Of a DNA stretch of 64,000 nt, positions 1-43,413 are shown one piece after another; the first letter of the stretch is position 1, and the number at the start of each line of letters is the position of its first letter. Under the pieces are notes generated by a model. The model was not told the origin of the DNA, ran no database searches, and saw nothing but the letters and a program-made list of their open reading frames with translations. The DNA comes from Escherichia phage C6. The stretch is from sequence record MW679410.1; one strand, 5' to 3'. Made by a program: the position numbers and the translations under genes.

Positions 1-786
1 ACTTAATGATGGTGAAATATTGAAGTCATTAGGAACCTGTGAACGTTCTAGTGCCAGGACACAAGTTTCTTCATACACACCAGCCAATTTAATAGCTTCA
101 GGCAAAGCCTCGAACTTCTCACGAGAAGTCATGACTTCAGAACCTTCCTTCATATAAAAGGTATATGCAGGGCGTCCGGCCAATGCCACAGCTTCATGGA
201 TAGAGTCATGGTCTAGGGTATAAATGGTGTCATTAAAGAACGATGATTTGTTTACATCTAATTTAGGATGAGAATAGCTCAACGTTTCTTTTTGACGTTG
301 CAGCATAATTTCCTGGAGTTCTTCATTCAGGGTGATACCTTTATTACGAAGGTATTTGATGTGGGACATAGTTTTCAGGAAGAACGGATTATTCTTCAGG
401 AAACGATGAGAGGTTTTGATAGCCAGACAGATATCAGGCGTAGCCCAATAGAAACCTGTAAGACGGTCCTTTTTAATATGATTTTCAGCATATTTCAGGA
501 GACGATAACTTGAGGTGAAATCTTCGTCTTGGAGCTCACCAGTGATTTCACGTACGTTAGTCAGAGCACGAACGATATATGCTTCAAAATAGGTTTCTTT
601 ACCGTTGTACATGCATTTAAAAGCCTGGACATCAGGGTTATCCACAGGAACATGGGCGCCGAACATCCGAGCTTTAAAGTGATTCCATGAGCCTTGGTCG
701 GCAATGAAATCCCAATCAGAATTTTCGATATACTTATTTTCAATCAGACCAGCGTGGTGCAGTGCACGAGAACCAATAACTAGCAT
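1..786 (-). CDS. hypothetical protein, partial (ATG at 786-784, reading frame open to window edge; 3' end outside window)
   Basis: Own reverse-complement translation MMLVIGSRALHHAGLIENKY... runs in frame to position 1 with no stop; absent from ORF track, which appears to list only stop-terminated ORFs. Confidence 0.5.
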   Translation of the reverse strand, partial: MLVIGSRALHHAGLIENKYIENSDWDFIADQGSWNHFKARMFGAHVPVDNPDVQAFKCMYNGKETYFEAYIVRALTNVREITGELQDEDFTSSYRLLKYAENHIKKDRLTGFYWATPDICLAIKTSHRFLKNNPFFLKTMSHIKYLRNKGITLNEELQEIMLQRQKETLSYSHPKLDVNKSSFFNDTIYTLDHDSIHEAVALAGRPAYTFYMKEGSEVMTSREKFEALPEAIKLAGVYEETCVLALERSQVPNDFNISPSLS

Positions 787-808
787 CATAATATTTTCCT
801 CAGTAAAC

Positions 809-1048
809 TTAAATTTCGGCAACGTAAGTGTTATGCAATTCCCACATATCATTGGAATTACTCTCAACGATAGGAATTATCTCATTAGAAATTTCTTCTG
901 CATAAGGGTCATTGATACAGTGAGCATCTTCAAAACGAACACCGTAATCAGACTTCTTATAAGCAAAGCCATAAATCTTTTTAAACTTGGCACGAGTAAT
1001 GCGTACTGGTTCATTAGACTTATCGGACATCGGAGCGTAATACCACAT
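809..1048 (-). CDS. hypothetical small protein (79 aa)
   Basis: ORF track; SD GAGGAG 5 nt upstream of ATG at 1048. Confidence 0.5.
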   Translation of the reverse strand: MWYYAPMSDKSNEPVRITRAKFKKIYGFAYKKSDYGVRFEDAHCINDPYAEEISNEIIPIVESNSNDMWELHNTYVAEI

Positions 1049-1091
1049 ATGTTCTCCTCATGTTTGTGTAGGGTAATAGTAACACGTATTT

Positions 1092-1421
1092 TTAGAGTTG
1101 TACATCACTTCTGCAATATTCTAAAAATAATTTATCGTTGTCTACCGTATCCCAACGACGCCAAGATGGATTCCAGACCAAAGCGTTGTCACCACAATCA
1201 TTGAGCTTAAAATGGTCGTAGTACATAGCTATACGTCTAGTTTCGTCACCAGAGAACCCCAGTATAGGCTCGCCATGGGTGTGATACATATGATGGTGCA
1301 TTGAGAGGTCGCATTTGTAAAACATCTCACGTTTACCACGAACGAACAAGAAAGCTTGCCCATTCATATAGAATTCTTTATCTGTTTTCAAAAGATATTT
1401 GAATACTGAATCTTTATGCAT
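1092..1421 (-). CDS. hypothetical protein (His-rich segment HHHMYHTH)
   Basis: ORF track; start moved to ATG at 1421 preceded by GGAGG. Confidence 0.5.
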   Translation of the reverse strand: MHKDSVFKYLLKTDKEFYMNGQAFLFVRGKREMFYKCDLSMHHHMYHTHGEPILGFSGDETRRIAMYYDHFKLNDCGDNALVWNPSWRRWDTVDNDKLFLEYCRSDVQL

Positions 1422-1451
1422 AAATCCTCCTACCACATCCATGTGGTTAAA

Positions 1452-1679
1452 TTATTTTCCTAACGAAACACGAGTAGGTTTTTTACCAAAATAGTCTTCA
1501 TAAGAACCATCTAAACGGCCTGCTTTAGACCGACAATACGAATCATACTTTTTGTAATAAGTCATCTCGGTATTATAACGTGGGTGTCTATCGGCCATAA
1601 TAATACTTAGTGGCCAACCTTTGGCATAATCGCGAAGACTGTTTATTTTACGAATGTATCGTTTTTTCAATTTTAGCAT
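1452..1679 (-). CDS. hypothetical basic small protein (75 aa)
   Basis: ORF track; ATG overlaps last codons of upstream paralog (ATGCTAA). Confidence 0.45.
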   Translation of the reverse strand: MLKLKKRYIRKINSLRDYAKGWPLSIIMADRHPRYNTEMTYYKKYDSYCRSKAGRLDGSYEDYFGKKPTRVSLGK

Positions 1680-1897
1680 GAGCTTGGGTACCAGATTTCA
1701 CCATCGGCACGAGCAACGAAGGTACGACCAGCTTCTTCACCATAACAAGAGCTGTTCAGCCAATCTTCGAGACGAACTTCGCCGTCATAATCGTCGAGCT
1801 CAACACCAAAATCCTGAGCAGAAGCCATATCTTTTACTTTCTTATACAGTGCAGCCAGTTCAAGTGCCGCTTTTTCTAATTCATTAATAGTAGTCAT
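1673..1897 (-). CDS. small acidic protein, paralog 5 of tandem family, C-terminus ...EIWYPSSC
   Basis: ORF track trimmed to ATG at 1897 (SD AAGGTG); C-terminal W-x-x-SS-C motif shared with four upstream genes. Confidence 0.6.
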   Translation of the reverse strand: MTTINELEKAALELAALYKKVKDMASAQDFGVELDDYDGEVRLEDWLNSSCYGEEAGRTFVARADGEIWYPSSC

Positions 1898-1907
1898 TTT
1901 TATCACC

Positions 1908-2117
1908 TTAGCAAGACATAGAGGATGTAAACCAGAAACCTTCACCTTCTGGAATACCGTAATCATCACGGACCCATTCGTAATCATCATATTCCGGACT
2001 AGAAGCTGGAATATATTCTTCGCCACCAGCGTGGAAGTGCTGACCTGTTTCGTCAGCCACGGACTGGCCTTTACGTACTAATTCGCGGATTTGTTTTTCA
2101 ATTTCATCAATAGTCAT
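1908..2117 (-). CDS. small acidic protein, paralog 4, C-terminus ...GFWFTSSMSC
   Basis: ORF track trimmed to ATG at 2117 (SD AAGGAA); conserved junction sequence with paralog 5. Confidence 0.6.
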   Translation of the reverse strand: MTIDEIEKQIRELVRKGQSVADETGQHFHAGGEEYIPASSPEYDDYEWVRDDYGIPEGEGFWFTSSMSC

Positions 2118-2127
2118 TTTTATTTCC

Positions 2128-2325
2128 TTAGCATTCGTAAGAGGAGGACACCCAAGAGGTACCACTAATAGTAATACAACCGTTATAAAGCGTGATATGT
2201 CGTTCTAGGTCACGAACACCATCGATATAGATATCAGCTTCTTCGCGTTCTTCTTTACAAATCTGGATAACGTTTTCAATAGCTGCCGCGGCAGTACGGA
2301 TTGCACAATCTAGTTCACGAGACAT
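2128..2325 (-). CDS. small acidic protein, paralog 3, C-terminus ...SWVSSSYEC
   Basis: ORF track; SD AAGGAA overlapping stop of paralog 2. Confidence 0.6.
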   Translation of the reverse strand: MSRELDCAIRTAAAAIENVIQICKEEREEADIYIDGVRDLERHITLYNGCITISGTSWVSSSYEC

Positions 2326-2334
2326 AATAATTCC

Positions 2335-2616
2335 TTAACATTCAGAAGAAGAGGATACCCATCCACCATTTTCTAGGCTGGTAGTGTAATCATGTTGGTT
2401 TACAATAGCGTACTGAGCTTCACCGTATTCTTCCCAGTGGGCAAGGTCGGCTTTCAGGGCGCCAGGAGAATAATAGTCACCGCCCATACCGCGAGCAGGG
2501 TATATATTAAAATGAGTCTCATATTTGTTAGCAATTTCCTCAGCACGACGAATAGCTTTATGGATATCATTTACTGCTTCAGCCAGTTCTTTATTTTTAC
2601 GGTAATCATTCATCAT
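2335..2616 (-). CDS. small acidic protein, paralog 2, C-terminus ...GGWVSSSSEC
   Basis: ORF track; SD AAGGAA overlapping stop of paralog 1. Confidence 0.6.
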   Translation of the reverse strand: MMNDYRKNKELAEAVNDIHKAIRRAEEIANKYETHFNIYPARGMGGDYYSPGALKADLAHWEEYGEAQYAIVNQHDYTTSLENGGWVSSSSEC

Positions 2617-2625
2617 AGCGTTTCC

Positions 2626-2916
2626 TTAGCACATTGCTGAAGAGGAGACCCAAGCACCAACTGTAACGACGCCGTTTTCAACTTCACCGCCGTTGTTTTC
2701 AATTTCATCTTTAAACCACTGGGAGCATTCATAACCGACAGGATAATATGTACGGCCTGAACCATAATCACCGGTACCGAATTGGATACCATACTTATCG
2801 GCAATAGCTTCACATTCATGTTCGATGGTATTCACTTTACGCAACAGGTCATAGATGGCTTTTTCTGCAGATTTTTCGTCGTTGTGTTCTGGGATTTCAA
2901 TTTCAATTTTATTCAT
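2626..2916 (-). CDS. small acidic protein, paralog 1, C-terminus ...GAWVSSSAMC
   Basis: ORF track; ATG overlaps stop of upstream membrane protein gene (ATGA). Confidence 0.6.
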   Translation of the reverse strand: MNKIEIEIPEHNDEKSAEKAIYDLLRKVNTIEHECEAIADKYGIQFGTGDYGSGRTYYPVGYECSQWFKDEIENNGGEVENGVVTVGAWVSSSAMC

Positions 2917-3266
2917 GATTTACATTCCTTAATAAAGATTTCAAGGTCATTACGTTTAGTTTGATTTACATACTCATTATAATTAGCCATCTCTAAAGCA
3001 TATCTCTTACGGATGGGAGCATTCAAAGCGTTTGTATGGCAAATATCATACACAACAGGGATAAAATAAGCCACGACAGCAGGAGCGATTATCATATAGA
3101 AACCCATCTCAATAGGCATGACTCCTTCGATTGCCGCCATAACCGTGGTCATTACCAGACCAACCAGACCTCCTAGCATACCGGTGACAATTCCCATAAA
3201 TAAGGAAATAGCAATATCATATTCAGCCAATTGATAAACATGTGATGAAAGACTAGGCCGTTCCAT
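2913..3266 (-). CDS. small hydrophobic (predicted membrane) protein, 117 aa
   Basis: ORF track 2913..3440 trimmed to internal ATG at 3266 just past stop of upstream gene; long hydrophobic stretches. Confidence 0.55.
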   Translation of the reverse strand: MERPSLSSHVYQLAEYDIAISLFMGIVTGMLGGLVGLVMTTVMAAIEGVMPIEMGFYMIIAPAVVAYFIPVVYDICHTNALNAPIRKRYALEMANYNEYVNQTKRNDLEIFIKECKS

Positions 3267-3795
3267 TTTGAACCTCTTTAGCGTATTCGCGACATTCAGC
3301 AATAAAACGATTAAGCTTCCGTTGTTGTTTTCGAATCTCTGATGTATACTCATTAGCCAAAATAATAAGCTCATCTTTATCGTAATTTTTAATATCCGAA
3401 TAACTCGGGCGGCGGTCGACCATACCAAAGTGGTCACCATTTTCTAACATCAAATAGCATACTAAATGGTAATCATCGTCAGCATCAACAAGCTGTTTAC
3501 AATCACTTGGTTCATTTAAAGCGTATACTGAATAGCATAATCCAGAGAATTCCACTCGTTGAATACCCAGATTTAAGTCAATAATTTCTAAAGCTTCTGC
3601 AAAAGAAAGGTCCTCAGCTAAAGCAAAGATAAAAGGTAATTTGCTAGTGTATCCACGGCTATTTGTTCGACTTAAGAAATCATTGGAATAACCTAAGTCT
3701 TGGCGAATTCTATAAAGAACTGAATTAGTTTCATGTGAAAGACCACTATGCTTAAACCAATCAATATTTGATATCAGGTCATCATATAAACTCAT
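3253..3795 (-). CDS. hypothetical protein (180 aa)
   Basis: ORF track; SD GGAGGAGAGG upstream of ATG at 3795. Confidence 0.6.
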   Translation of the reverse strand: MSLYDDLISNIDWFKHSGLSHETNSVLYRIRQDLGYSNDFLSRTNSRGYTSKLPFIFALAEDLSFAEALEIIDLNLGIQRVEFSGLCYSVYALNEPSDCKQLVDADDDYHLVCYLMLENGDHFGMVDRRPSYSDIKNYDKDELIILANEYTSEIRKQQRKLNRFIAECREYAKEVQNGTA

Positions 3796-3818
3796 AATAT
3801 TCTCCTCTCCTCCAAATA

Positions 3819-3836
3819 GGGAGACCGAAGTCTCCC
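3819..3836 (-). terminator. GC hairpin GGGAGACUUCGGUCUCCC (UUCG loop) followed by U-rich tract on minus strand
   Basis: Inverted repeat read directly; same hairpin recurs at 5335-5350 and 41705-41722. Confidence 0.5.
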
Positions 3837-3843
3837 GGTAACA

Positions 3844-4437
3844 TTACTTAAGTGAATTAATGTAGTCGTCGATATCAGCAGAAGTCGTATCCATTCCAAC
3901 TTGTGGGCCTTTAAATGTTTCTACACGCAGCAGGGTATCTTCAATATCAATCTTAGTCAATGCAGCGATTTCAACAACATCATCGGCAGTAGCAATACCA
4001 AGGGCAGCCATATTACGAGTTTCACGGATGTACTCGAGCTTAACGGCTAGTTCCTGACGAGAGTCATCAAGTTCCTTGACCTTCAGTTTAATTTCATTAC
4101 GCATTTCGATATAATCATCGGCTTTCTTACGAAGCTGAGTAGCTGTACGACGATAAAGGAGACCGAGTTTAGCATGTACCTGGACATCAGCGCCTTCGGC
4201 AATCAGTTTACGAATTTCACGTTCTTTAGAAGCAGCGAGCTGGTCTTTTTCATTAGCCAACGCACGAATACGTTTTTCTTCATTCACAGACTTAACATGA
4301 GCAGTCTGGAGTTCAGTGATTTTATCAATCAGGGTAGAAGCAGCTTTAGTATACTGGTCTTCGATTGACAGGTTCTGAGTCATTGCGGTGCCCAGTTTAG
4401 AACGAATGAATTCAACGAGTTTCTTTAAAGTGTTCAT
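3844..4437 (-). CDS. hypothetical coiled-coil-rich protein (197 aa)
   Basis: ORF track; heptad-like charged/hydrophobic pattern. Confidence 0.6.
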
Positions 4438-4479
4438 AGTATTTCCTTCAGTTGATTAAGATTTATAATCCATGAGGAC

Positions 4480-4509
4480 ATTATACCCTGTCCTCTGAGG
4501 GTTGTAAAC
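4480..4509 (-). promoter_or_regulatory. early-type sigma70 promoter (GTTTAC -N18- TATAAT) for gene 3844..4437
   Basis: -35 GTTTAC and -10 TATAAT read on minus strand, -10 embedded in short inverted repeat. Confidence 0.45.
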
Positions 4510-4512
4510 ATT

Positions 4513-4785
4513 TTATTTCATTTTTGCTAGGCAGATTTCATTGGCTTCCCATTGAGCTTGCTTAATAATAGCTTTGGATACAGGAGCCCTTTGGCCATAA
4601 GTTTTTGACGTTGAGAGAACAATACATTTGTTTGCTTCATTATGCCAGCCCCATGATTTTTCGCCATGGGTACCTTTAACTACAGCTGACACCTCAACAG
4701 AGCAACCACCATCAGAAATCTTGGTTTCGACAATCCATTCATTTCTCTCGGCTGCTTCAAGTTCTAATCTAGTTTTTTTCTTCAT
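4513..4785 (-). CDS. hypothetical protein (90 aa)
   Basis: ORF track. Confidence 0.5.
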   Translation of the reverse strand: MKKKTRLELEAAERNEWIVETKISDGGCSVEVSAVVKGTHGEKSWGWHNEANKCIVLSTSKTYGQRAPVSKAIIKQAQWEANEICLAKMK

Positions 4786-4969
4786 ACATGGCAGCCCAAT
4801 CAGTTTTTGCCAAGTTGAAAGTAAGAGCTTTCTCTAATTCTTTGGCAGCTTTTTGTTGTTCAGGTGTTAATGAATTATACAACTCTTGCATTTCTTTATC
4901 TTCGATATTCATTATGTTCTCCTCAAATTACGGGCTCATAATATCTTAATCATGAGCCCATGTAAACTT

Positions 4970-5233
4970 TTATTTCATATTATTGAAATAATCTTCCGCA
5001 TCAAAATCGTTATCATGATAAACTTTGGTAGACGATTTGGCGTAACCTTCAGCTGAGAACATATTAATCACAACTTTAATTGTATACCACTGTCCATCTT
5101 CATTACCCATTACTGCATAGGTTTCATACACTGGGTGTTCAGGACCGATAACCTTAATATCGTTAACTGTGGCACCAAATTCTTCCGGAACGCATTTCAT
5201 AAAGAAATTAAACAATTCACCATAATTATCCAT
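4970..5233 (-). CDS. hypothetical acidic protein (87 aa)
   Basis: ORF track start is GTG; moved to ATG at 5233 preceded by AAGGAG. Confidence 0.55.
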   Translation of the reverse strand: MDNYGELFNFFMKCVPEEFGATVNDIKVIGPEHPVYETYAVMGNEDGQWYTIKVVINMFSAEGYAKSSTKVYHDNDFDAEDYFNNMK

Positions 5234-5268
5234 TTTACTCTCCTTCACTCTGTTGTTTTGATAGGTCT

Positions 5269-5297
5269 ATAGTATCATGTTTAAAGTAGGTGTAAAC
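5269..5297 (-). promoter_or_regulatory. early-type promoter GTTTAC -N17- TACTAT
   Basis: Motif read on minus strand upstream of gene 4970..5233. Confidence 0.45.
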
Positions 5298-5334
5298 AAC
5301 TTTGTGAAATTATTTTTAGTCTAAACCCCCAAAA

Positions 5335-5350
5335 AGGAGACCGAAGTCTC
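5335..5350 (-). terminator. GC hairpin GGAGACUUCGGUCUCC + U5 on minus strand
   Basis: Inverted repeat followed by TTTTT immediately downstream of stop of gene 5357..5974. Confidence 0.55.
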
Positions 5351-5356
5351 CTTTCA

Positions 5357-5974
5357 TTATTTACGGGTCTTTTCGAACTGAGCGGCGTCACCAGCAAGGC
5401 GGCGTGCTTGACGAAGTTTGTTGTCGATTTCTTCGTGCATAGGCTGGGTATACTTAAGGCCTTCAACCGTCAGATAGAGACGATAAAGGTCTGGGGTATC
5501 CAGGTTGTTAATGTGCTGTCCGTTACGAAGAGCATTGAACTCTCGAACGAGTTGTTTAGTTTCAGATTCGATTTCCGAAACCAAAGAAGCCAGTTGATTA
5601 TATTTTTTAACTATAGTGCTGGTGTCAAACTTGATTTTAGGTTTAGGAGCTTCTTTTACCGGTTCGGCTTTAGGCGTTGGTTTCGGCGCTGCAACTTTGG
5701 TCTGGGCCACAGGTTTAGCAACAGGAGCTTTAGCTGGTTTAGCAGGCTTAGTAGCGCCGCCAGCTACGATATCTTTAAAAGCTTTGGAAGCTTTGTAATA
5801 TTCTTTCTGGTTACTAGTATCAAAACCATACATATCATAAACGTTTTTAAAGAACTCAGTACTAGTTTTAGCCCCAGAAATTTTATCATAAGCGGCTTGC
5901 CACATATCTTTAGTCATGCGCACGCCGGCTTCAGTCAGAATGTTTTCGTTCAAAAATTCATTGTAAGTTTTCAT
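5357..5974 (-). CDS. capsid internal protein, IPIII-like, with N-terminal capsid targeting sequence MKTYNEFLNE and Ala/Pro/Lys-rich low-complexity linker
   Basis: N-terminus matches the T4 internal-protein targeting sequence MKTYQEFIAE as recalled; position between tRNA cluster and early genes. Confidence 0.7.
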   Translation of the reverse strand: MKTYNEFLNENILTEAGVRMTKDMWQAAYDKISGAKTSTEFFKNVYDMYGFDTSNQKEYYKASKAFKDIVAGGATKPAKPAKAPVAKPVAQTKVAAPKPTPKAEPVKEAPKPKIKFDTSTIVKKYNQLASLVSEIESETKQLVREFNALRNGQHINNLDTPDLYRLYLTVEGLKYTQPMHEEIDNKLRQARRLAGDAAQFEKTRK

Positions 5975-6002
5975 TATTGTTTCCTGTGTTAATTAACTTA
6001 TC

Positions 6003-6010
6003 TATTTATA
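6003..6010 (-). promoter_or_regulatory. late promoter TATAAATA for IPIII-like gene
   Basis: Exact TATAAATA on minus strand about 29 nt upstream of ATG 5974. Confidence 0.5.
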
Positions 6011-6017
6011 CAAAAAA

Positions 6018-6039
6018 GGCCCAACCTTTCGGAAGGGCC
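6018..6039 (-). terminator. GC-rich hairpin followed by U6 on minus strand, downstream of tRNA cluster
   Basis: GGCCCAACCTTTCGGAAGGGCC with flanking A/T runs; near-identical copy at 48161-48188. Confidence 0.5.
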
Positions 6040-6217
6040 TTTAACCTAGGGTAACCTTGTCGGGGTTCCACCTGCTAGGCAAGTGTTCAAAAATAAGGTG
6101 CGCCGTTTCAGCTGTGAGATAAGGGACTTTAAGAGGAACTCATGTACGCCTTAAAGTCGGGTCTTATTCAGGGAACTTCAGTCCGACGACTTACCGGTAG
6201 CGACCCGGTTTCTTGTT

Positions 6218-6293
6218 TGGCCGAGACAGTAGGGATCGAACCTACGACCCAGGACTTAGAAGGTCCTTGCTCTTCCTTCTGAGCTATGCCTCG
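6218..6293 (-). tRNA. tRNA-Arg (anticodon TCT)
   Basis: Hand-folded cloverleaf: 7-bp acceptor stem, GCTC/GAGC D-stem, anticodon loop CTTCTAA, T-loop GGTTCGATCC, encoded CCA. Confidence 0.8.
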
Positions 6294-6297
6294 TATT

Positions 6298-6372
6298 TGG
6301 CGGACATGCATGGATTCGAACCATGGACCAATTGATTAACAGTCAACTGCTCTGCCACTGAGCTACACATCC
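6298..6372 (-). tRNA. tRNA-Asn (anticodon GTT)
   Basis: Anticodon loop CTGTTAA, T-loop GGTTCGAATCC, acceptor stem pairs with G-U wobbles, encoded CCA. Confidence 0.75.
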
Positions 6373-6376
6373 AAAT

Positions 6377-6450
6377 TGGTGGCCCTGGGTGGAATCGAAC
6401 CACCATCCAGCGATTATGAGTCGCTCGCTTGACCGTCCAGCTACAGGGCC
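6377..6450 (-). tRNA. tRNA with CAT anticodon (Met or lysidine-type Ile2)
   Basis: Perfect 7-bp acceptor stem GGCCCTG/CAGGGCC, anticodon loop CTCATAA, T-loop GGTTCGATTCC; anticodon arm resembles E. coli tRNA-Ile2 as recalled. Confidence 0.75.
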
Positions 6451-6455
6451 TTAAT

Positions 6456-6722
6456 TTAAATTACAAATCCAGCAGGAGCATTATCATCTTTAGCCATGTG
6501 CTGAATTGTATGATAAGTCATTTCTTCAGGAGCAACCAGATAAGCCGCAGCGTTAACTAGTGGAATTATTTTTGGTTTAGCGAATGTGCTATCGGCAATT
6601 GTCATAAAGGGCTCGCCGTCGGTCTCAACTTCGCCAAATTGACATTCATATGAAATAGAACAACGTTTGGTAGTTGTTGTCTTGGTTTCCGGGTCATAAA
6701 AAGCTAATTTTAATACTAACAT
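6456..6722 (-). CDS. hypothetical protein (88 aa)
   Basis: ORF track trimmed to ATG at 6722 with SD GAGGTG. Confidence 0.5.
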   Translation of the reverse strand: MLVLKLAFYDPETKTTTTKRCSISYECQFGEVETDGEPFMTIADSTFAKPKIIPLVNAAAYLVAPEEMTYHTIQHMAKDDNAPAGFVI

Positions 6723-6852
6723 AAACACCTCAAATAAAAATTAAGTAAAGTAAGTTTGATTAATAGACCTTGTCTATTATGAAAGGTTCTTTGAGGGAAG
6801 AACCTTTGGTAATAGAGGGTATTAATGATAGAGTAATAATATCACATAATTC

Positions 6853-7329
6853 TTAAAGCATATCAAGTGCTTTAACACTAGGTATTTGGATTTCTTCTTC
6901 AACGATGTACAGCTTAACATAAGAAATTACGCGCATGAAATCGCCGTCATATTCACAAGCCATACCAAGGAGCTCAGTAAGGGCTTCATTCAAGTAGTAT
7001 GCTTCTTCATCGTCATTCAACAAGGCTTCTAAGTCTTGAATACCTAGGACCTTATCCAAAAATTCAGGAGTCAACTGACCGGATTTTACACCAGATTCAA
7101 TGTGAGCAATAACCAAATGCTTAACTACGTCCCAGTCTTCGTTACCACATTTATTGTGGTTGTTGCAATGCGAACCATGGAAAAGTTCTAAGATGTATTT
7201 GTACTGTTGGATTTCCTGTTCTTCTACACCAAATACAGTCTGGGTTTTATAGTTATCACCATCATTTTCCCAAGTTTCGATTTCAAGAACATAACCTTTA
7301 GGAATAACTTGTCCAAATTTAATATTCAT
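6853..7329 (-). CDS. hypothetical acidic protein (158 aa)
   Basis: ORF track start is GTG; ATG at 7329 overlaps upstream stop (ATGA). Confidence 0.55.
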   Translation of the reverse strand: MNIKFGQVIPKGYVLEIETWENDGDNYKTQTVFGVEEQEIQQYKYILELFHGSHCNNHNKCGNEDWDVVKHLVIAHIESGVKSGQLTPEFLDKVLGIQDLEALLNDDEEAYYLNEALTELLGMACEYDGDFMRVISYVKLYIVEEEIQIPSVKALDML

Positions 7330-7616
7330 TGTGGCCACATATTAATGTAATCAAGTTTAATAGAAGCAATCTTCAAAGGATTTTTAAATATGTCATATTC
7401 GACCAATCCGTTTTCAGTTGCGGTATAAAAAGTAAAGTTAACAGAATTATAACGATGGCTGTTAACTTTGAGTTTAACATCACTTGAACTACGGCCAATA
7501 TTAACCTGTTGAACATCAAGCACAGCATCTTTGCCGTAATTTCGAATCAACAACTCGGCTGCAACCTGATCGGATTTATAGCCATTCTCTGGATTAGTAA
7601 CCTTAACGTATAGCAT
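7326..7616 (-). CDS. hypothetical protein (96 aa)
   Basis: ORF track; start abuts upstream stop (TAAATG). Confidence 0.5.
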   Translation of the reverse strand: MLYVKVTNPENGYKSDQVAAELLIRNYGKDAVLDVQQVNIGRSSSDVKLKVNSHRYNSVNFTFYTATENGLVEYDIFKNPLKIASIKLDYINMWPQ

Positions 7617-7997
7617 TTAACCCTCGTCTACAATTGTGTGGGTATTGGCATTAACAATTTGCCACCAGTCAAAACGATTAGACCCATATTGAGGCTTATT
7701 CTCGTTTTCTTTAATGATATCACGTAGTTCATCTTCAGTAGCAGCTTTTGCGATTAAGTCGGCATAGCCGCCACGAGGATAATAGTTATCACCTGCGAAA
7801 AGTAAAAAGTTTGTTTTGATATTATTGAACTCTTCAAGAGTAATAACCGTTCCGTTTGGTTGAACAATATCTATATAACTATATCCTAATTTCTGAGCTT
7901 CGGAAACCGCTTCAAGCAGGGTATCATGGGCCCATCCAATTTGACAATCGGGTTTTTCGGATGGATTAGCTTGGTAGTCCGCATACACTTTATACAT
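7617..7997 (-). CDS. hypothetical protein (126 aa)
   Basis: ORF track trimmed to ATG at 7997 (SD GGTGAG). Confidence 0.55.
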   Translation of the reverse strand: MYKVYADYQANPSEKPDCQIGWAHDTLLEAVSEAQKLGYSYIDIVQPNGTVITLEEFNNIKTNFLLFAGDNYYPRGGYADLIAKAATEDELRDIIKENENKPQYGSNRFDWWQIVNANTHTIVDEG

Positions 7998-7998
7998 T

Positions 7999-8184
7999 TT
8001 ACTCACCTTTAGAGATTTTATCCATAACAAAAGAGATTGAACCAATTAAAAATGCCACTACTAAAGAGATTATATTCTCGGAAGTTGAAAGCATATCGAG
8101 CATGAATCCTGCAAACATACTAAAGCCAAAAGCAGTAACGGCGGCCAGTGCAGTAACATTTCTAATTAATTCACAACGTTTCAT
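7999..8184 (-). CDS. small membrane protein (61 aa, two hydrophobic segments)
   Basis: ORF track start is TTG; ATG at 8184 preceded by GGAG. Confidence 0.5.
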   Translation of the reverse strand: MKRCELIRNVTALAAVTAFGFSMFAGFMLDMLSTSENIISLVVAFLIGSISFVMDKISKGE

Positions 8185-8220
8185 TTTATTCTCCAATCAC
8201 TCATTTGTTTTGATAGGGCT

Positions 8221-8250
8221 ATAGTACCATCACTAGAGCCCGTTGTAAAC
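8221..8250 (-). promoter_or_regulatory. early-type promoter GTTTAC -N18- TACTAT
   Basis: Motif on minus strand upstream of 7999..8184 operon. Confidence 0.45.
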
Positions 8251-8252
8251 AA

Positions 8253-8525
8253 TTATTTTAAATAAATTGCATACTTTTTATAACCAGCCGTTTCGTGACG
8301 CAGCCCTTTTTCATTAGCAAAACGTTCAATATTGTTAATTTGATTCCGGTCAAGCTCTGAAGTATCAAAAACAAAAAAATTTCGCTTATTGCCTAAAGTT
8401 ACGTGATTAGTCAAATCAATGTTATAGAGATGATTTATATCATCAATCATAGTCTTAACAGATTTGTTAATTTTTACTTCCTCATTAAGAATAGATTCAG
8501 AGATAAATTCTTGATAAGTTTTCAT
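8253..8525 (-). CDS. capsid internal protein (IPI-like) with capsid targeting sequence MKTYQEFISE
   Basis: N-terminal targeting-sequence match; located immediately before 57B as IPI is in T4 (recalled). Confidence 0.65.
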   Translation of the reverse strand: MKTYQEFISESILNEEVKINKSVKTMIDDINHLYNIDLTNHVTLGNKRNFFVFDTSELDRNQINNIERFANEKGLRHETAGYKKYAIYLK

Positions 8526-8526
8526 T

Positions 8527-8752
8527 TTATTCTACGCCAGCGGCTTTCAAAAGTTTTTTAAGATTGGCCGTGCCTTGAGCAGAAAATGTGACCTTGCCGT
8601 CTTTTTCGCCGATACTCCCGGTCAATTTAGCAAGTTTATCACTAGGGATTTTTTTAAAATCAGCCAATGTACCGTCAAAGGTTTTTGTAACAACTGGCAG
8701 TTGGTCTTCGTGTTTTTTTAGCTTCGGTAATAAATTCTTGATAAGTTTTCAT
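8527..8752 (-). pseudogene. internal-protein-like gene (CTS MKTYQEFITE) interrupted by frameshift at A7 homopolymer
   Basis: ATG at 8752 gives MKTYQEFITEAKK then premature stop; frame shifted by one nt is open to TAA at 8527. Removing one A from the 7-A run (plus-strand T7 at 8713-8719) restores a 74-aa ORF. Confidence 0.5.
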
Positions 8753-8789
8753 TTTGATTTCCGTTTGGTTAGTTTGTTTTGATAGGTCT

Positions 8790-8818
8790 ATAGTATCATG
8801 CCTATAGACCTTGTAAAC
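8790..8818 (-). promoter_or_regulatory. early-type promoter GTTTAC -N17- TACTAT
   Basis: Motif on minus strand upstream of internal-protein genes. Confidence 0.45.
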
Positions 8819-8825
8819 AACTTTT

Positions 8826-9503
<678 letters not shown>

Positions 9504-9511
<8 letters not shown>

Positions 9512-10265
9512 TTTTATTTCCTAATAATTTATCAATAGTAGTGTATAGTTCAGAAAGAGTGCCGTTATTTTCAACAACAACGTCACCAGGTAAAATTGGT
9601 AGACCCGCTTCAGTGATGTGCGAGTCTTGTACTTGACCGGTTTCAGAGCGAACCACATGAATAATCGTAGCACCCATCGCTCTGAGCGAATCAATTTCGT
9701 GTGTTTGACGAACATCAGGTACGACATAGTATTTCGCATCAGAGTATATTTTATCAAAATAGTCTAAAGCGAACAACTTAACCCAATACATCTTATCAAA
9801 TTGGTTAACAATAATATCAGTCCCAAGGGTCTGCATGAGACGACGTACTGACCAATTGTTATTTTTATTTATTACTTCAAACAGTTGGTCTTTTGTTTCT
9901 TCAGACAGATACTGGACTGGGGTAAGACCATAATGATATGCGGTACGAACATCCATTCCTGGAATAGGAAGGATATTATTCAGTTTGACAATAGCATTTT
10001 CAAAGATATCAATCACATCATATGGTTTTAAAGGAAGGATTTCTTCACGGTCGTAACCTATACCTTCAAAACAGTTAAAATCGAGTTTAGGCATATAACT
10101 ACGGTCGAATACAGGGTCATCAGAGATGTATTCATAAGCTTCAGCCAGATACTTTTTAATAGGACCTGCGAGCTGAAATTTTACCGAATCCATATTTTCG
10201 ATTACATAGTTAGCAACGGTATCCTTACCGCTACGTTTGATTCCTACAATTGATATTAGTTTCAT
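9504..10265 (-). CDS. 1: gp1 deoxynucleoside monophosphate kinase
   Basis: P-loop GIKRSGKDT near N-terminus; size and synteny. Confidence 0.9.
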
Positions 10266-10937: not shown

Positions 10938-11588
10938 TTATTTTATAAATTCACGTAGTCTTACTGGTGTCATAAAAGGCCATTTGGCTATAGTTGGTTT
11001 TATCCAGTATCTTTCGTGACATGTAGCTTTAAATGCCCGAACCATATCTTTGGCCTCTTCTATAGTATCCACACCAAATTGTTCACAAGTTTCCTTTCTG
11101 GCTTTATCCCATCTCCTTTTAGAAAGCTCTGATTGGAGTTCTTTATTGGCAAAATGGCCATTATTCCTATTATGAGTGGTTCCTTTTGTAGGACTCCATC
11201 CTCGTCCCTTTACAAATCCTTCAGGAATCGGTTCACCCGGAAACAGCTTAATACACTTCTTGCCATTATTATAATAAACCTTTCCTGTTTGGGTTGCCGT
11301 GATATTCTCAGAGTGCTTACGTTTAAGCCAGCCGTAAAGCTTATTATAACGACGAGGGCCTTGAGTCATTGTCATAGCTGCAAAAGTTAGACCAGGATGT
11401 CCTGGATGCATTTTAACTAATAGTTGATGTGCTAAATAATGTTCTTCAGGAGTTAAATCAACTAAGTTTGTAGATTCATCACCTCCACCCATACATCTAG
11501 GTAAAATATGATGAGATTCGGTATAACAGGATAGTGCTCGTCCTTGAGCACGTGTAATTAATGAAGAATATATTTTCTGGTAATTCAT
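10938..11588 (-). CDS. HNH-family homing endonuclease (free-standing, inserted between genes 3 and 2)
   Basis: Motif SHHILPRCMGGGDESTNLVDLTPEEHYLAH (H-H...N...H); not part of T4 3-2 junction as recalled; start moved to ATG 11588 overlapping gp2 stop. Confidence 0.75.
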   Translation of the reverse strand: MNYQKIYSSLITRAQGRALSCYTESHHILPRCMGGGDESTNLVDLTPEEHYLAHQLLVKMHPGHPGLTFAAMTMTQGPRRYNKLYGWLKRKHSENITATQTGKVYYNNGKKCIKLFPGEPIPEGFVKGRGWSPTKGTTHNRNNGHFANKELQSELSKRRWDKARKETCEQFGVDTIEEAKDMVRAFKATCHERYWIKPTIAKWPFMTPVRLREFIK

Positions 11589-12424
11589 TATGCATTCTTC
11601 CAAACTTTCTGAGCTGAGTAACGCTTGCCTTTCGATACAAATTGCTGAAGTGGTAATCCTATTACATTAGCCCAATCAGCAGGTTTTATCTCTACTAAAG
11701 GTCCTTTAATATTTCCAGGGATATAAGCCTTAATCATCACGTCGGCTCCAGCGAATCCTTTTACCTTACTCCAATCGATTTTTAATTTAGTCGAGTTCGT
11801 AATGGTAGGCGTACTCGCGTATTGCTTCAGCAATTCTTCCAGAAATTGTTGGCGTGCTTTAGGCGGGATATAGTGTAAGTTCAGCCCGTACATTAAATTA
11901 TGCTTACCTAACCCAAGATAAATGATTAAAGGATATTTGTCCCAGTATGGTAGGGTATCCTTATGTTTGGCATCATAGATATAAGCATAAAGCTTACCGG
12001 GAGATGGTTTAGATACCTGGTGTCCACGAATTCCTTTCTTTAATGTTTCTGTAAACCATTTAGCTGATTTATTGTTTACAGCGGCGCCTTCGTTAGCAAT
12101 CTTATCACGAATACTCTTTCTAAAACTATTCACCAAAATTAATTGGCGTTCGGCTTTGGTTAATTTATTGCCAGGTTTATTCTGAAGTTTTTCAACCTGT
12201 ACAGCAGTTTTAATTCGACTCGAATATCGAGACATCGCAGATGTAAAGCTAGAATATTTAATGCCTTTATCTTCAGCGAATTTCTTAGCCGAGACACCTT
12301 TAGCCTTAGCTTTAGCGTATTCAACACCTAAAGCTATCCATTGTTGTTCTGAACGGGTAGGCTTGGAACCCTTTGTGGTTTCAGTAGCCTCATTGATGTA
12401 GGAAAATATACTCATCCTTTCCAT
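11588..12424 (-). CDS. 2: gp2 DNA end protector protein
   Basis: Size and synteny. Confidence 0.85.
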
Positions 12425-27091: not shown

Positions 27092-27100
27092 GGAAATAAA

Positions 27101-28645
27101 ATGATTGACAAACTGAGTATTAAAGAACTTCCGTTTGTCGATGGTGTACCCGATGCATCCCAAGAGCGTATCCGTTGGATACGCAATGGAGAATGTATTG
27201 AAGGAGCCACGACTAAATACGGTCACGACGGTAATTTGAATGCCCCTGCTTTAGGAGTACAAACCAACGTAGTTAGATTAGAAGAAAACAGTATAGCTTC
27301 TAAAGACAAAATTAACGAGCTTGTGGATAACGTTAATTTGATTAATGAAGCCCTAGATATTTCTACTGATACGGGTGTTATTCAGCAAATTGAAAAGAAC
27401 CGAGTTGATATACTGGCTGTGGATGAAAAGGCTTCCGAAACTAAACAAGAATTGGGTGACTTAACCGTTAATTTTAATTTTTTAGAAGAAGATGTAGGTT
27501 ATTACGACCCGTCTTTAGATGGCCCATATCTCACCGTCAGAGAAAATATAAATCTTCTTAAATCTGAAATTGGTCATTATGCGAACCAGGATATAAACAG
27601 CCAACCGCTTCCTCCAGGTGAAACTTCTGAAGCCACCGGCATGAAACGTCGCATTATGGATAATACCAGTGCTATTGTCGACCATTCACAACGTATAGAT
27701 ACCCTTGAAAAGAATTACGAAGATTCTGATGTAGGGCAACTTGGGCTTAAGATTAACGAAATTCGTGAAGAACTCGGCCCTCATATCGATACCGTAGGTA
27801 AACAACCAGCGTATACCAGGATTTCTACTCTTGAAACTGCTGCTATAAGCTTTAACGAATCAATAGATTCTATCAAAACCAGTATAGGTTTTAATAAAGG
27901 CCCTATTGATACAAGAGTAACCACGCTGGAAACTAAAACTTCCACTTTAGAAAACACGGTTAATAACGGTTTGGTTCCTAGAGTTACTGCGGTGGAAACC
28001 GCTATCGGTGCGGCAGATACCCCTACTTCTATTAACGGTAGATTAGGTGGCTTACGTACCGATGTTAATGAACTAAAAACTATAGTAGGTGCTAGTTCAT
28101 CCGAAGGGCTTCGTTTCCAGGTTTCCGATATAGACCGTAAAATTGGTGCCGATGTAAGTCCGGCTGCGGGAACAATTAATAAACGTTTGAATGACCTTAC
28201 GACTCAAGGTAATACTTCAGCCTCAACTATTCAGGATTTACAGGCTGAAATTGGTAACAACCAAACGGGTATTAAAGGTTCTATTCTTAAAATTACCAAC
28301 CAAATTGAAGGAACAAACCCTAACGGTAGTACTGTAGAAGAACGAGGGTTAATAAATTCTGTTAAAGGCCTTGAAGCTCAAATGCCTACTAAATTGAGTG
28401 ATGCTCCTGCCGATGGTAAATTATACGGACGTAAAGATGCGGCTTGGGCTGAAATCCTTGGCACTACAGAAATTGATACAGTCAAAGCTTCTTTATTGGT
28501 GGCTGAAGGTAAAATCACTGCACTAGAAACTGAGTTGGCTAAACGCCCTCCTGTTGCTCCTGTGGCTGACGGACTTCCGTATGTTCTGGTTGATAACGCA
28601 TGGGTACTATTGTCAGATTTTGTGACTTTAAACCCAGCACCATAA
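27101..28645 (+). CDS. wac: fibritin (whisker antigen control), coiled coil with C-terminal foldon-like end
   Basis: Long coiled-coil sequence, C-terminal ...YVLVDNAWVLLSDFV; synteny after gene 12. Confidence 0.9.
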   Translation: MIDKLSIKELPFVDGVPDASQERIRWIRNGECIEGATTKYGHDGNLNAPALGVQTNVVRLEENSIASKDKINELVDNVNLINEALDISTDTGVIQQIEKNRVDILAVDEKASETKQELGDLTVNFNFLEEDVGYYDPSLDGPYLTVRENINLLKSEIGHYANQDINSQPLPPGETSEATGMKRRIMDNTSAIVDHSQRIDTLEKNYEDSDVGQLGLKINEIREELGPHIDTVGKQPAYTRISTLETAAISFNESIDSIKTSIGFNKGPIDTRVTTLETKTSTLENTVNNGLVPRVTAVETAIGAADTPTSINGRLGGLRTDVNELKTIVGASSSEGLRFQVSDIDRKIGADVSPAAGTINKRLNDLTTQGNTSASTIQDLQAEIGNNQTGIKGSILKITNQIEGTNPNGSTVEERGLINSVKGLEAQMPTKLSDAPADGKLYGRKDAAWAEILGTTEIDTVKASLLVAEGKITALETELAKRPPVAPVADGLPYVLVDNAWVLLSDFVTLNPAP

Positions 28646-28646
28646 T

Positions 28647-28668
28647 AAAAGGGCTTCGGCCCTTTTTT
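28647..28668 (+). terminator. hairpin GGGCUUCGGCCC + U6
   Basis: Read directly after wac stop. Confidence 0.6.
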
Positions 28669-43387: not shown

Positions 43388-43389
43388 CA

Positions 43390-43413
43390 AAAAAGGGACC
43401 TTACGGTCCCTTT
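43390..43413. terminator. bidirectional hairpin GGGACCUUACGGUCCC flanked by A6 and U3
   Basis: Between convergent genes 24 and rnlB. Confidence 0.55.

What the first reader, a model, noticed from the sequence alone, without database searches (positions are those of the whole stretch)
8527..8752. Internal-protein gene with capsid-targeting sequence broken at an A7 homopolymer
ATG at 8752 encodes MKTYQEFITEAKK, a clear capsid-targeting N-terminus, then hits a stop after 25 codons. The frame one nt over is open for a further 62 codons to TAA at 8527. The break is exactly at a run of seven A (plus-strand T7, 8713-8719); six A would give a clean 74-aa ORF. This is either an assembly/sequencing error, a recent pseudogenisation, or slippage-prone on/off expression of an injected protein.
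Basis: seen in the sequence. Interest (0 to 1): 0.6.

Follow-up and report, generated by a model that had tools for sequence, protein, structure and literature searches.

The report
Frameshifted ip8 internal-protein gene
A small, dispensable gene for a protein that this T4-like phage packs into its head and injects into bacteria is broken by one extra A in a run of A's; this is an ordinary, probably reversible knockout or a sequencing miscall, not a new mechanism.

Summary
The window is a Dhakavirus (JS98/IME08-like T-even phage), almost certainly Escherichia phage C6 (MW679410). On the minus strand, just downstream of 57B (Acb1), lies the ortholog of ip8, a capsid-targeted internal protein gene first named in phage RB15. 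The ORF starts at 8752 (MKTYQEFITE...), reaches an A7 run (8713-8719) and stops after 25 codons. The next frame encodes the remaining 61 residues of Ip8. All 15 relatives examined have A6, AAAAGA or AAGGGG at this site and an intact 72-74 aa gene. That gene is under purifying selection (dN/dS about 0.15). The window's copy shows no other decay, so the break is very recent or artefactual. A second, identical A6-to-A7 break truncates an unrelated accessory gene at 4773-4779. No other gene in the 64 kb is frameshifted. There is no recoding signal, and no relative shares the shifted arrangement, so programmed frameshifting is unsupported. The best reading is a replication-slippage null allele at a hypermutable homopolymer, the kind of tract recently described in T2/T4 as a phage 'contingency locus'. 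A sequencing error cannot be excluded without reads. Interest is low.

The parts
8675..8752 (-). 5' fragment of ip8: ATG 8752, CTS MKTYQEFITE, then out-of-frame AKKTRRPTASCYKNL and TGA stop (8675-8677); 25 codons
8713..8719 (-). A7 homopolymer (T7 on the plus strand) where the frame breaks; relatives have A6 (7 alleles), AAAAGA (6) or AAGGGG (1)
8527..8712 (-). Remainder of ip8 in the +1 frame (HEDQLPVV...AAGVE, TAA at 8527-8529), 61 codons, with no stop and no unique amino-acid change
8527..8667 (-). 46-aa TTG-initiated ORF inside that frame; identical to GenBank QVW28295.1 'hypothetical protein [Escherichia phage C6]', a gene-caller product of the broken gene that lacks the CTS
8649..8655 (-). 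Second A7 run of ip8 (codons F-K-K-I), in frame here. It is A7 in intact alleles with Ile and A6 in those with Val. An independent Logan contig (ERR12726535) has this run one A shorter than the intact A7 alleles, which breaks the gene
8554..8559 (-). Third long A run of ip8 (A6, codons L-K-K-L)
8253..8525 (-). ip9: intact 90-aa CTS-bearing internal head protein (MKTYQEFISE...). Its ATG lies 1 nt after the ip8 stop with no evident SD, so it may be translationally coupled to ip8
8753..8830 (-). PeSL-like cassette upstream of ip8: TTTACA-16 nt-TACTAT promoter (8817-8790) with a stem-loop (GGTCTATAG...CTATAGACC) overlapping the -10 box
8185..8262 (-). Second PeSL-like cassette downstream of ip9, 85% identical to the first; the two bracket the ip8-ip9 module
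8826..9281 (-). Gene 57B = Acb1 anti-CBASS phosphodiesterase (Pfam PF23474, E 1e-58), the conserved upstream neighbour that anchors the polymorphic ip locus
4513..4912 (-). Second gene broken the same way: homolog of IME08 orf127 / AnYang ORF075 (132 aa, PHROG 8232, unknown function). A7 at 4773-4779 versus A6 in 6/6 relatives; reads ...AAMYEEKN* and then continues in another frame

Best explanation
This is the ip8 ortholog of a Dhakavirus (probably Escherichia phage C6), carrying a +1 A insertion (A6 to A7) in codons 12-13. Ip8 belongs to the T-even internal proteins. Its 10-residue N-terminal capsid-targeting sequence takes it into the prohead core. The gp21 protease would cut after Glu10. 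The mature ~64-aa protein would then be injected with the DNA, by analogy with T4 Ip1-3, which each block a specific GmrSD type IV restriction enzyme. The extra A most likely arose by DNA-polymerase slippage on the A6 tract, the classic T4 frameshift hot spot. It yields a null allele: a 25-aa product (the CTS plus 15 unrelated residues) and no mature Ip8, possibly with reduced translation of the abutting ip9. Because ip genes are dispensable on hosts lacking the cognate defence, the allele is tolerated. Because A7 slips back to A6 at high frequency, it is readily reversible in a population. What is shown: the anatomy, the orthology, that the A7 is unique, the purifying selection in relatives, and the youth of the lesion. 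What is inferred: the slippage origin, packaging and injection, the anti-defence role, polarity on ip9, and that the extra A is in the phage DNA rather than only in the assembly.
For: The A7 is unique among 15 related genomes (14 distinct alleles), all with an intact 72-74 aa ORF. 16 of 19 homologous protein clusters in a 5.8-billion-protein database are 65-74 aa. dN/dS among relatives is about 0.15. The window allele differs from its nearest relatives at 10-11 nt but only 2-3 aa in the Ip8 frame, with one unique base at a third codon position. The gene was therefore under coding constraint until just before sampling. A second A6-to-A7 break lies in another accessory gene. No ORF of at least 60 aa elsewhere in the 64 kb is frame-split, and the other non-3n indels are intergenic or compensated. 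Only 10 of the 45 runs of 6 nt or more lie in the accessory block 1-9281, so two random miscalls would both land there with P about 0.05. That pattern is expected if selection filtered real mutations. CTS residues Y4, F7, I8 and E10 are present. Experiments in T2/T4 show that runs of 6 nt or more mutate at about 3e-4 per read, and that an engineered A6+1 in rIIA reverts about 10,000-fold faster than a SNP.
Against: No read data are available, and the sequencing platform of MW679410 is not stated in the one paper that cites it. Two +1 over-calls, both at A6 tracts on the same strand, is also what a homopolymer-prone platform would produce. The statistical argument against random error is modest (P about 0.05, weaker if non-essential genes elsewhere are counted). 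No second genome carries the A7 allele. Ip8's packaging, injection and target have not been shown for any member in the sources I could read.
Confidence: 0.55

Rival explanations
1. Sequencing or assembly artefact: the phage really has A6 at both 8713-8719 and 4773-4779, and the consensus over-called one base in each homopolymer.
For: Both anomalies are +1 at A6 tracts on the same strand. Both alleles are unique to this genome. The downstream ip8 frame shows no decay at all, exactly as expected if the gene is actually intact. Public assemblies show other homopolymer breaks in ip8, such as P0019 from Logan run ERR12726535.
Against: The other 43 runs of 6 nt or more, including seven A7/T7 runs and one T8 that lie mostly in structural genes, leave no ORF of at least 60 aa frame-split relative to the relatives. 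No ORF of at least 60 aa other than orf127 is split. Both events fall in the 15% of the window that is accessory (P about 0.05 under random error). A platform with systematic homopolymer error normally leaves frameshifts in essential genes too.
Confidence: 0.33
2. Adaptive contingency switching: the A tracts of ip8 are selected as a reversible on/off switch, and the OFF state was favoured in this lineage (for example because Ip8 is costly or is sensed by a host defence).
For: T-even homopolymers of 6 nt or more behave as contingency loci experimentally. ip8-ip9 hold 4 of the window's 45 long runs in 500 nt (expected 0.35, Poisson P 5e-4). ip8 is broken at a different A tract in an independent dataset. 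The gene sits in an anti-defence neighbourhood next to Acb1.
Against: The tract is not conserved: 6 of 14 alleles read AAAAGA and one reads AAGGGG at this site. The runs are explained by Lys-Lys (AAA AAA) and Phe-Phe codons in an AT-rich (67%) gene for a Lys-rich protein. In T2, the two T6 runs of ipIV showed zero variant reads in the supplementary rows retrieved, at depths of about 2,200-2,500. No fitness trade-off is known for Ip8.
Confidence: 0.08
3. Programmed recoding: full-length Ip8 is made from the A7 template by transcriptional slippage (loss of one A in the mRNA) or by +1 ribosomal frameshifting of tRNA-Lys on AAA-AAA-A.
For: A +1 re-pairing of tRNA-Lys on the A7 would restore exactly the wild-type sequence ...AKK-HEDQ. 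A runs are known slippery sequences for both RNA polymerase and ribosomes (established knowledge; reviewed in PMC5009743, listed but not read).
Against: No relative has the shifted arrangement; all encode Ip8 in one frame. There is no stimulatory structure: the RNA fold z-score is 0.08 and 108 of 200 shuffles fold as well. There is no SD-like element upstream and no stop or notably rare codon in the A site (ACA). Efficient E. coli RNA polymerase slippage generally needs runs of about 9 or more (established knowledge). The same gene tolerates an in-frame A7 at 8649-8655, which would be harmful if A7 slipped efficiently. At most a percent-level leak is expected.
Confidence: 0.04

Closest known systems
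Ip8 of phage RB15 and its orthologs (GenBank Z35082; Repoila et al. 1994, EMBO J 13:4181; annotated ip8 in vB_EcoM-VR5)
   Same: Same gene family and same locus, immediately downstream of 57B and followed by ip9. 84.6% nucleotide identity to RB15 ip8 (H75). PHROG 8765 E 5e-27. Same CTS.
   Different: The window's copy has A7 instead of A6/AAAAGA and is split into a 25-codon 5' ORF and a 61-codon out-of-frame remainder.
T4 internal proteins Ip1 (IPI*), Ip2 and Ip3
   Same: A 10-residue N-terminal CTS (MKTYQEFIxE type) with targeting residues 4 and 7 and processing residues 8 and 10. Small, basic, non-essential proteins encoded in hyperplastic regions. Each T4 protein inhibits one GmrSD type IV restriction enzyme.
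   Different: The mature domain has no detectable sequence or fold similarity to them. No PDB match reaches E <= 0.001 and IPI* is not recovered. Ip8's target is unknown.
T4 rIIA A6 tract and T2 agt A-tract 'contingency loci' (Gomez, Barrick & Waters 2025, bioRxiv 10.1101/2025.10.21.683753)
   Same: A +1 A insertion in an A6 run of a T-even accessory or defence-related gene giving a null allele. The engineered rIIA Mut123 is the same kind of lesion and reverts about 10,000-fold faster than a SNP.
   Different: Here the OFF allele is the consensus of a deposited genome, not a minority variant or an engineered mutant. No reversion rate or fitness trade-off has been measured. The tract is not conserved across ip8 alleles.
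Programmed +1 frameshift / transcriptional slippage sites (prfB, dnaX of Thermus, IS elements)
   Same: A homopolymeric slippery run at the frame junction.
   Different: No conservation of the two-frame arrangement and no stimulator; the required shift is +1 on a run with an ordinary sense codon in the A site.

Membership tests
T-even internal (Ip) proteins | N-terminal ~10-aa capsid-targeting sequence with key residues at positions 4 and 7 (targeting) and 8 and 10 (gp21 processing) | tested here: met
   MKTYQEFITE has Y4, F7, I8 and E10. F7, I8 and E10 are invariant in 14 homologs. The N-terminal 24-46 residues alone hit three other Ip PHROGs.
T-even internal (Ip) proteins | Homology and synteny with a named ip gene at the polymorphic locus next to 57B | tested here: met
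   PHROG 8765 E 5e-27. 84.6% nt identity to RB15 ip8. 57B/Acb1 lies upstream and ip9 downstream, as in VR5, AnYang and others.
T-even internal (Ip) proteins | Intact reading frame linking the CTS to the mature domain | tested here: not met
   The frame is broken at the A7; the CTS is linked to 15 unrelated residues. It is therefore an inactivated allele of the family, not a functional member as written.
T-even internal (Ip) proteins | Physically packaged in the head, cleaved by gp21 and injected | not testable with these tools
   Needs virion mass spectrometry or injection assays.
Programmed frameshift / transcriptional slippage site | The two-frame arrangement is conserved among relatives | tested here: not met
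   0 of 15 related genomes have it; all have a single ORF.
Programmed frameshift / transcriptional slippage site | Stimulatory element (downstream structure, upstream SD-like sequence, or a stop/rare codon in the A site) | tested here: not met
   RNA fold z = 0.08. The upstream sequence is UUACCGAAGCU and the A-site codon is ACA.
Programmed frameshift / transcriptional slippage site | Slippery sequence compatible with the required shift | tested here: inconclusive
   AAA-AAA-A allows +1 re-pairing of tRNA-Lys and would restore the wild-type sequence, but A7 is below the length usually needed for efficient slippage (inference from established knowledge).
Phage contingency locus (sensu Gomez et al. 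2025) | Mononucleotide repeat of at least 6 nt inside an ORF, with +/-1 length variants that switch the gene on or off | tested here: met
   A6 in relatives versus A7 here. An independent break occurs at the gene's second A run in a Logan contig.
Phage contingency locus (sensu Gomez et al. 2025) | Measured elevated and reversible mutation rate at the tract | not testable with these tools
   Needs deep sequencing of populations or reversion assays; shown only for T2 agt and T4 rIIA.
Phage contingency locus (sensu Gomez et al. 2025) | Tract maintained by selection / fitness trade-off between ON and OFF | tested here: not met
   The tract is interrupted (AAAAGA or AAGGGG) in 7 of 14 alleles. No trade-off is known.
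Homopolymer sequencing artefact | Frameshifts scattered through essential genes at long homopolymers | tested here: not met
   Only two ORFs are broken, both accessory. The other 43 runs of 6 nt or more leave no ORF of at least 60 aa frame-split.
Homopolymer sequencing artefact | Read-level length heterogeneity or miscalls at the site | not testable with these tools
   No reads are available. The record MW679410 is not in the annotated collection, and the citing paper gives no platform.

The most novel reading that the evidence does not exclude
The A tracts of ip8 (and of the orf127-like gene) act as genuine contingency switches, letting this Dhakavirus toggle injected or accessory anti-defence proteins. 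The OFF alleles fixed in phage C6 would have been selected because the proteins are costly or are sensed by a defence in its STEC host. This would be the first natural isolate caught with contingency loci in the OFF state in injected-protein genes.
Probability: 0.08. Interest if true: 0.55.

Novelty: new member of a known kind. Interest (0 to 1): 0.2.

Why it matters
As it stands it matters mainly for annotation. GenBank carries a meaningless 46-aa 'hypothetical protein' (QVW28295.1) where a frameshifted ip8 should be flagged, and a second accessory gene in the same genome has the same defect. If the A7 is real, phage C6 is a natural Ip8-null (and orf127-null) strain. Its A6 revertants would then form a ready-made isogenic pair for finding the still-unknown host defence that Ip8 counters. 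That is useful because only T4 Ip1-3 have identified targets. It would also be a natural example of the homopolymer on/off variation recently demonstrated in laboratory T2/T4 populations. C6 has been used in a phage cocktail, so loss of an anti-defence protein could slightly narrow its host range.

Tried and rejected
(1) I searched for the A7 allele elsewhere. A gapped-pattern scan of IMG/VR found only two A6 genomes. The same scan of JGI metagenomes and GTDB genomes returned nine hits, all chance matches in unrelated contigs with no CTS upstream. Both single-use scans are spent and gave nothing.

(2) I tried to retrieve the source record and its reads. The look-up of encoding contigs found no record for P0017. 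MW679410 is not in the annotated phage collection. The only paper citing C6 gives no sequencing method.

(3) I tried to infer Ip8's function from its fold. The AlphaFold model is moderately confident (pLDDT 78, a beta-alpha-beta-beta-alpha domain). It has no PDB match at E <= 0.001 (weak KH/PNPase-like similarity only, TM about 0.5). In BFVD it matches only its own ortholog in phage Merlin. A PDB sequence search found nothing and Pfam has no family.

(4) I looked for a recoding signal and found no RNA structure.

(5) A literature search for 'Ip8/Ip9' returned only unrelated papers. Repoila 1994 (PMC395341) is not held.

(6) I rejected an old pseudogene, because the allele has no unique amino-acid changes and no secondary stops.

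(7) I rejected a genome-wide homopolymer error problem, because only two ORFs are affected.

(8) The 221-aa ORF between genes 3 and 2 has no Pfam hit and is unrelated to AnYang's 221-aa homing endonuclease.

Full report
**What is in the sequence**

Read on the minus strand, window 8752-8527 begins ATG AAA ACT TAT CAA GAA TTT ATT ACC GAA GCT AAA AAA ACA CGA ... It translates to MKTYQEFITEAKKTRRPTASCYKNL and then TGA at 8675-8677. The run of seven A (plus-strand T7) occupies 8713-8719. The frame one nucleotide over is open from the run to TAA at 8527-8529. It reads HEDQLPVVTKTFDGTLADFKKIPSDKLAKLTGSIGEKDGKVTFSAQGTANLKKLLKAAGVE. Removing one A gives a 74-aa ORF.

**Which genome and which gene**

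The window is a Dhakavirus, a JS98/IME08-like T-even phage. The closest annotated genomes, AnYang and IME08, are about 96% identical over 20 kb. The gene order on the minus strand is:
- gene 1, dNMP kinase (9504-10265)
- 57A (9281-9511)
- 57B (8826-9281)
- the broken gene
- an intact 90-aa CTS-bearing gene (8253-8525)
- trna.4 and trna.3

Relatives annotate the two small genes as ip8 ('internal virion protein') and ip9 ('internal head protein'). The query is 84.6% identical to the original RB15 ip8 record Z35082 (H75). The repaired protein hits PHROG 8765 'internal virion protein' at E 5e-27, and ip9 hits PHROG 7673 at E 7e-56. Pfam has no family for either.

The 46-aa TTG ORF inside the downstream frame (8527-8667) is identical to GenBank QVW28295.1, 'hypothetical protein [Escherichia phage C6]', on a 169,530-bp contig. 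Phage C6 is MW679410, a Dhakavirus of exactly that length used in a piglet phage cocktail (PMC11048100). The window is therefore almost certainly phage C6. Its public annotation has mis-called the remnant of ip8 as a separate small protein.

**The capsid-targeting sequence**

The CTS of T4 internal proteins is the first 10 residues. Targeting depends mainly on residues 4 and 7, and gp21 processing depends on residues 8 and 10 (PMC9026906). MKTYQEFITE has Y4, F7, I8 and E10. F7, I8 and E10 are invariant across 14 Ip8 homologs. The N-terminal 24-46 residues alone match three otherwise unrelated Ip PHROGs, as expected for a shared targeting peptide on diverse cargo. Internal proteins are described as a highly diverse, non-essential set of injected anti-defence proteins that share only the CTS (PMC3012670). 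T4 Ip1, Ip2 and Ip3 each inhibit one specific GmrSD type IV restriction enzyme (PMC12373910). No function is reported for Ip8.

**Comparison with relatives**

I collected the locus from 15 related genomes, giving 14 distinct alleles. Every one encodes an intact Ip8 of 72-74 aa. At the site of the break:
- seven alleles read GCT AAA AAA CAC (A6, Lys-Lys)
- six read AAA AGA (Lys-Arg)
- one reads AAG GGG

The window is the only A7. In a 5.8-billion-protein database, 16 of 19 homologous clusters are 65-74 aa. The exceptions are the C6 fragment itself, a fusion protein in UFV-AREG1, and P0019. P0019 is a 42-aa product from a Logan assembly (ERR12726535) whose gene is broken at the second A run of ip8, reading FKK|SLVINLLN. 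Scans of IMG/VR, JGI metagenomes and GTDB genomes found no other A7 allele.

**Age of the lesion**

Among relatives, ip8 evolves under purifying selection (53 pairs; summed dN/dS 0.14, median 0.17). The window's repaired allele differs from its nearest relatives at 10-11 nucleotides but only 2-3 amino acids. It has a single base not seen in any relative, at a third codon position. Its divergence therefore accumulated while the Ip8 frame was being read. The frameshift is either very recent or not real.

**A second, identical event and a whole-window control**

I aligned the 64 kb against IME08 and AnYang, listed all indels, and ran tblastn with every reference ORF of at least 60 aa against the window. 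Exactly one further frame-split gene emerged. It is the homolog of IME08 orf127 / AnYang ORF075, a 132-aa protein of unknown function (PHROG 8232). In the window it reads ...AAMYEEKN* and then continues in another frame. The cause is again A7 (plus-strand T7 at 4773-4779), where all six relatives carrying the gene have A6. All other non-3n indels are intergenic (RBS-to-ATG spacers, or just after stop codons) or are compensated pairs in divergent stretches.

The window has 45 mononucleotide runs of 6 nt or more, ten of them 7 nt or longer. The 43 others, including seven A7/T7 runs and a T8 that lie mostly in structural genes, leave no ORF of at least 60 aa frame-split relative to the relatives. 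Only 10 of the 45 runs lie in the accessory block 1-9281. Two random miscalls would both fall there with probability about 0.05. This favours real mutations filtered by selection, but only modestly. Two same-strand +1 calls at A6 tracts is also what a homopolymer-prone platform would produce. The platform is unknown and the record is unavailable.

**Is it a recoding site?**

To reach the Ip8 frame from the A7 template, one of two things must happen: the ribosome must shift +1, or RNA polymerase must drop one A. A +1 re-pairing of tRNA-Lys on AAA-AAA-A would in fact regenerate the exact wild-type sequence. Several observations argue against a programmed event:
- No relative has the two-frame arrangement.
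- The surrounding RNA is no more structured than shuffled controls (z = 0.08).
- There is no SD-like element upstream.
- The A-site codon (ACA) is an ordinary sense codon.
- The same gene carries another A7 in frame at 8649-8655, as do the intact alleles of VR5 and an IMG/VR contig.

From established knowledge, efficient transcriptional slippage by E. coli RNA polymerase needs runs of roughly nine or more. A percent-level leak is conceivable; a programmed mechanism is not supported.

**DNA-level switching**

A 2025 preprint (bioRxiv 10.1101/2025.10.21.683753) reports the following for T2, T4 and T6:
- Most runs of 6 nt or more carry +/-1 variants, at an average of about 3e-4 of reads.
- Frameshifts in A tracts of T2 agt give escape from a type IV restriction system and revert about 1000-fold faster than a SNP.
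- An engineered extra A in the A6 tract of T4 rIIA reverts about 10,000-fold faster than a SNP.

The authors call these tracts phage contingency loci. The ip8 lesion is the same kind of mutation. If it is real, it should revert readily, so a C6 population would contain Ip8-ON variants.

Is the tract selected for mutability? The 500 nt of ip8-ip9 hold four of the window's 45 long runs (expected 0.35, Poisson P 5e-4). However, the runs are Lys-Lys and Phe-Phe codons in a 67% AT, Lys-rich gene. Half of the alleles interrupt the tract with G. In T2, the two T6 runs of ipIV showed no variant reads in the supplementary rows retrieved. I therefore treat adaptive switching as a minority possibility.

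**Likely consequences**

These are inferred rather than shown. The A7 allele would give a 25-aa product. After gp21 cleavage at Glu10, this would leave a 15-residue basic peptide that might still be packaged, because the CTS alone suffices to target foreign proteins. No mature Ip8 would be made. The annotated 46-aa ORF lacks the CTS and has no convincing RBS. The ip9 ATG lies one nucleotide after the ip8 stop (GAA TAA A ATG) with no evident Shine-Dalgarno. Terminating 150 nt upstream could therefore reduce Ip9 synthesis if the two genes are translationally coupled.

**What Ip8 itself is**

An AlphaFold model built from 14 homologs shows a disordered CTS followed by a compact beta-alpha-beta-beta-alpha domain (mean pLDDT 78; 83-90 over residues 21-70). 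It has no significant match in the PDB: the best hit is E 0.26, there is weak KH-like similarity, and T4 IPI* is not recovered. There is no sequence match to solved structures. Only its own ortholog is found among predicted viral structures. Its target remains unknown. The neighbourhood is anti-defence: 57B is Acb1, the anti-CBASS nuclease (Pfam PF23474, E 1e-58). The ip8-ip9 pair is bracketed by two 85%-identical promoter-plus-stem-loop elements. These match the PeSL cassettes proposed to mediate modular shuffling in T4-type hyperplastic regions (PMC2839356).

**Verdict**

It is a frameshifted allele of a known, dispensable internal-protein gene at a known type of mutational hot spot. My probabilities are:
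- about 0.55 for a genuine, recent, reversible replication-slippage null allele
- about 0.33 for a sequencing miscall
- about 0.08 for selected contingency switching
- about 0.04 for expression-level recoding

It is a new instance of a known kind, of low general interest. Its practical value is for annotation, and, if real, as a natural Ip8-null/revertant pair for finding Ip8's target.

Noticed in passing
window 4513-4912 (-), run at 4773-4779: A second gene is broken by the same A6-to-A7 change: the homolog of IME08 orf127 / AnYang ORF075 (132 aa, PHROG 8232, unknown function). It reads ...AAMYEEKN* and then continues in another frame. 6/6 relatives have A6 and an intact ORF.
   Followed up: yes
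window 5357-5974 (-): A third CTS-bearing ORF lies in the window (205 aa, MKTYNEFLNE...; counterpart of IME08 orf129 / JS98 gp135). It is annotated only as hypothetical in relatives, has no Pfam hit, and is probably an unnamed internal protein.
   Followed up: partly
window 8753-8830 and 8185-8262 (-): Two 85%-identical ~60-nt elements (TTGTTTACAA -35, a stem-loop overlapping a TACTAT -10, then CTATCAAAACAAA) bracket the ip8-ip9 pair. They match the published PeSL (promoter-early stem-loop) cassette architecture linked to modular shuffling.
   Followed up: partly
window 8826-9281 (-): Gene 57B, the conserved neighbour of the ip locus, is Acb1, the anti-CBASS cyclic-nucleotide phosphodiesterase (Pfam PF23474, E 1e-58). 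RefSeq relatives label it 'RNA ligase'.
   Followed up: yes
L002 (IME08) 375-660; L020 (EcWhh-1) 4672-4881; also IME341, IME281, UP19: Several relatives carry an extra ~210-nt segment (a 69-aa ORF, EcWhh1_248, without a CTS) between 57B and ip8 that is absent from the window. IME08's own records leave its intact ip8 unannotated.
   Followed up: no
L034 (Logan ERR12726535 contig) 869-997; P0018 (UFV-AREG1): There are independent damaged ip8 alleles in public data. One is broken at the gene's second A run (FKK|SLVINLLN). One is fused to unrelated sequence after ...GSISE.
   Followed up: partly
window 8253-8752: ip8 and ip9 together hold 4 of the window's 45 homopolymer runs of 6 nt or more in 500 nt (expected 0.35, Poisson P 5e-4). 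This is probably a by-product of Lys/Phe-rich, AT-rich coding.
   Followed up: partly
window 10938-11603 (-): A 221-aa ORF (contains ...SHHILPRCMGGGDESTNLVDLTPEEHYLAHQ..., HNH-like by eye) sits between gene 3 and gene 2, where AnYang has only an 83-nt gap. It has no Pfam hit and is unrelated to AnYang's 221-aa homing endonuclease. It is possibly a mobile endonuclease insertion.
   Followed up: partly
window 2117-2121, 27098-27101, 28663-28668, 43389-43394: Other homopolymer length differences from the relatives all fall in intergenic spacers (RBS-to-ATG spacers or just after stop codons). This is the pattern expected of real, selection-filtered variation.
   Followed up: partly
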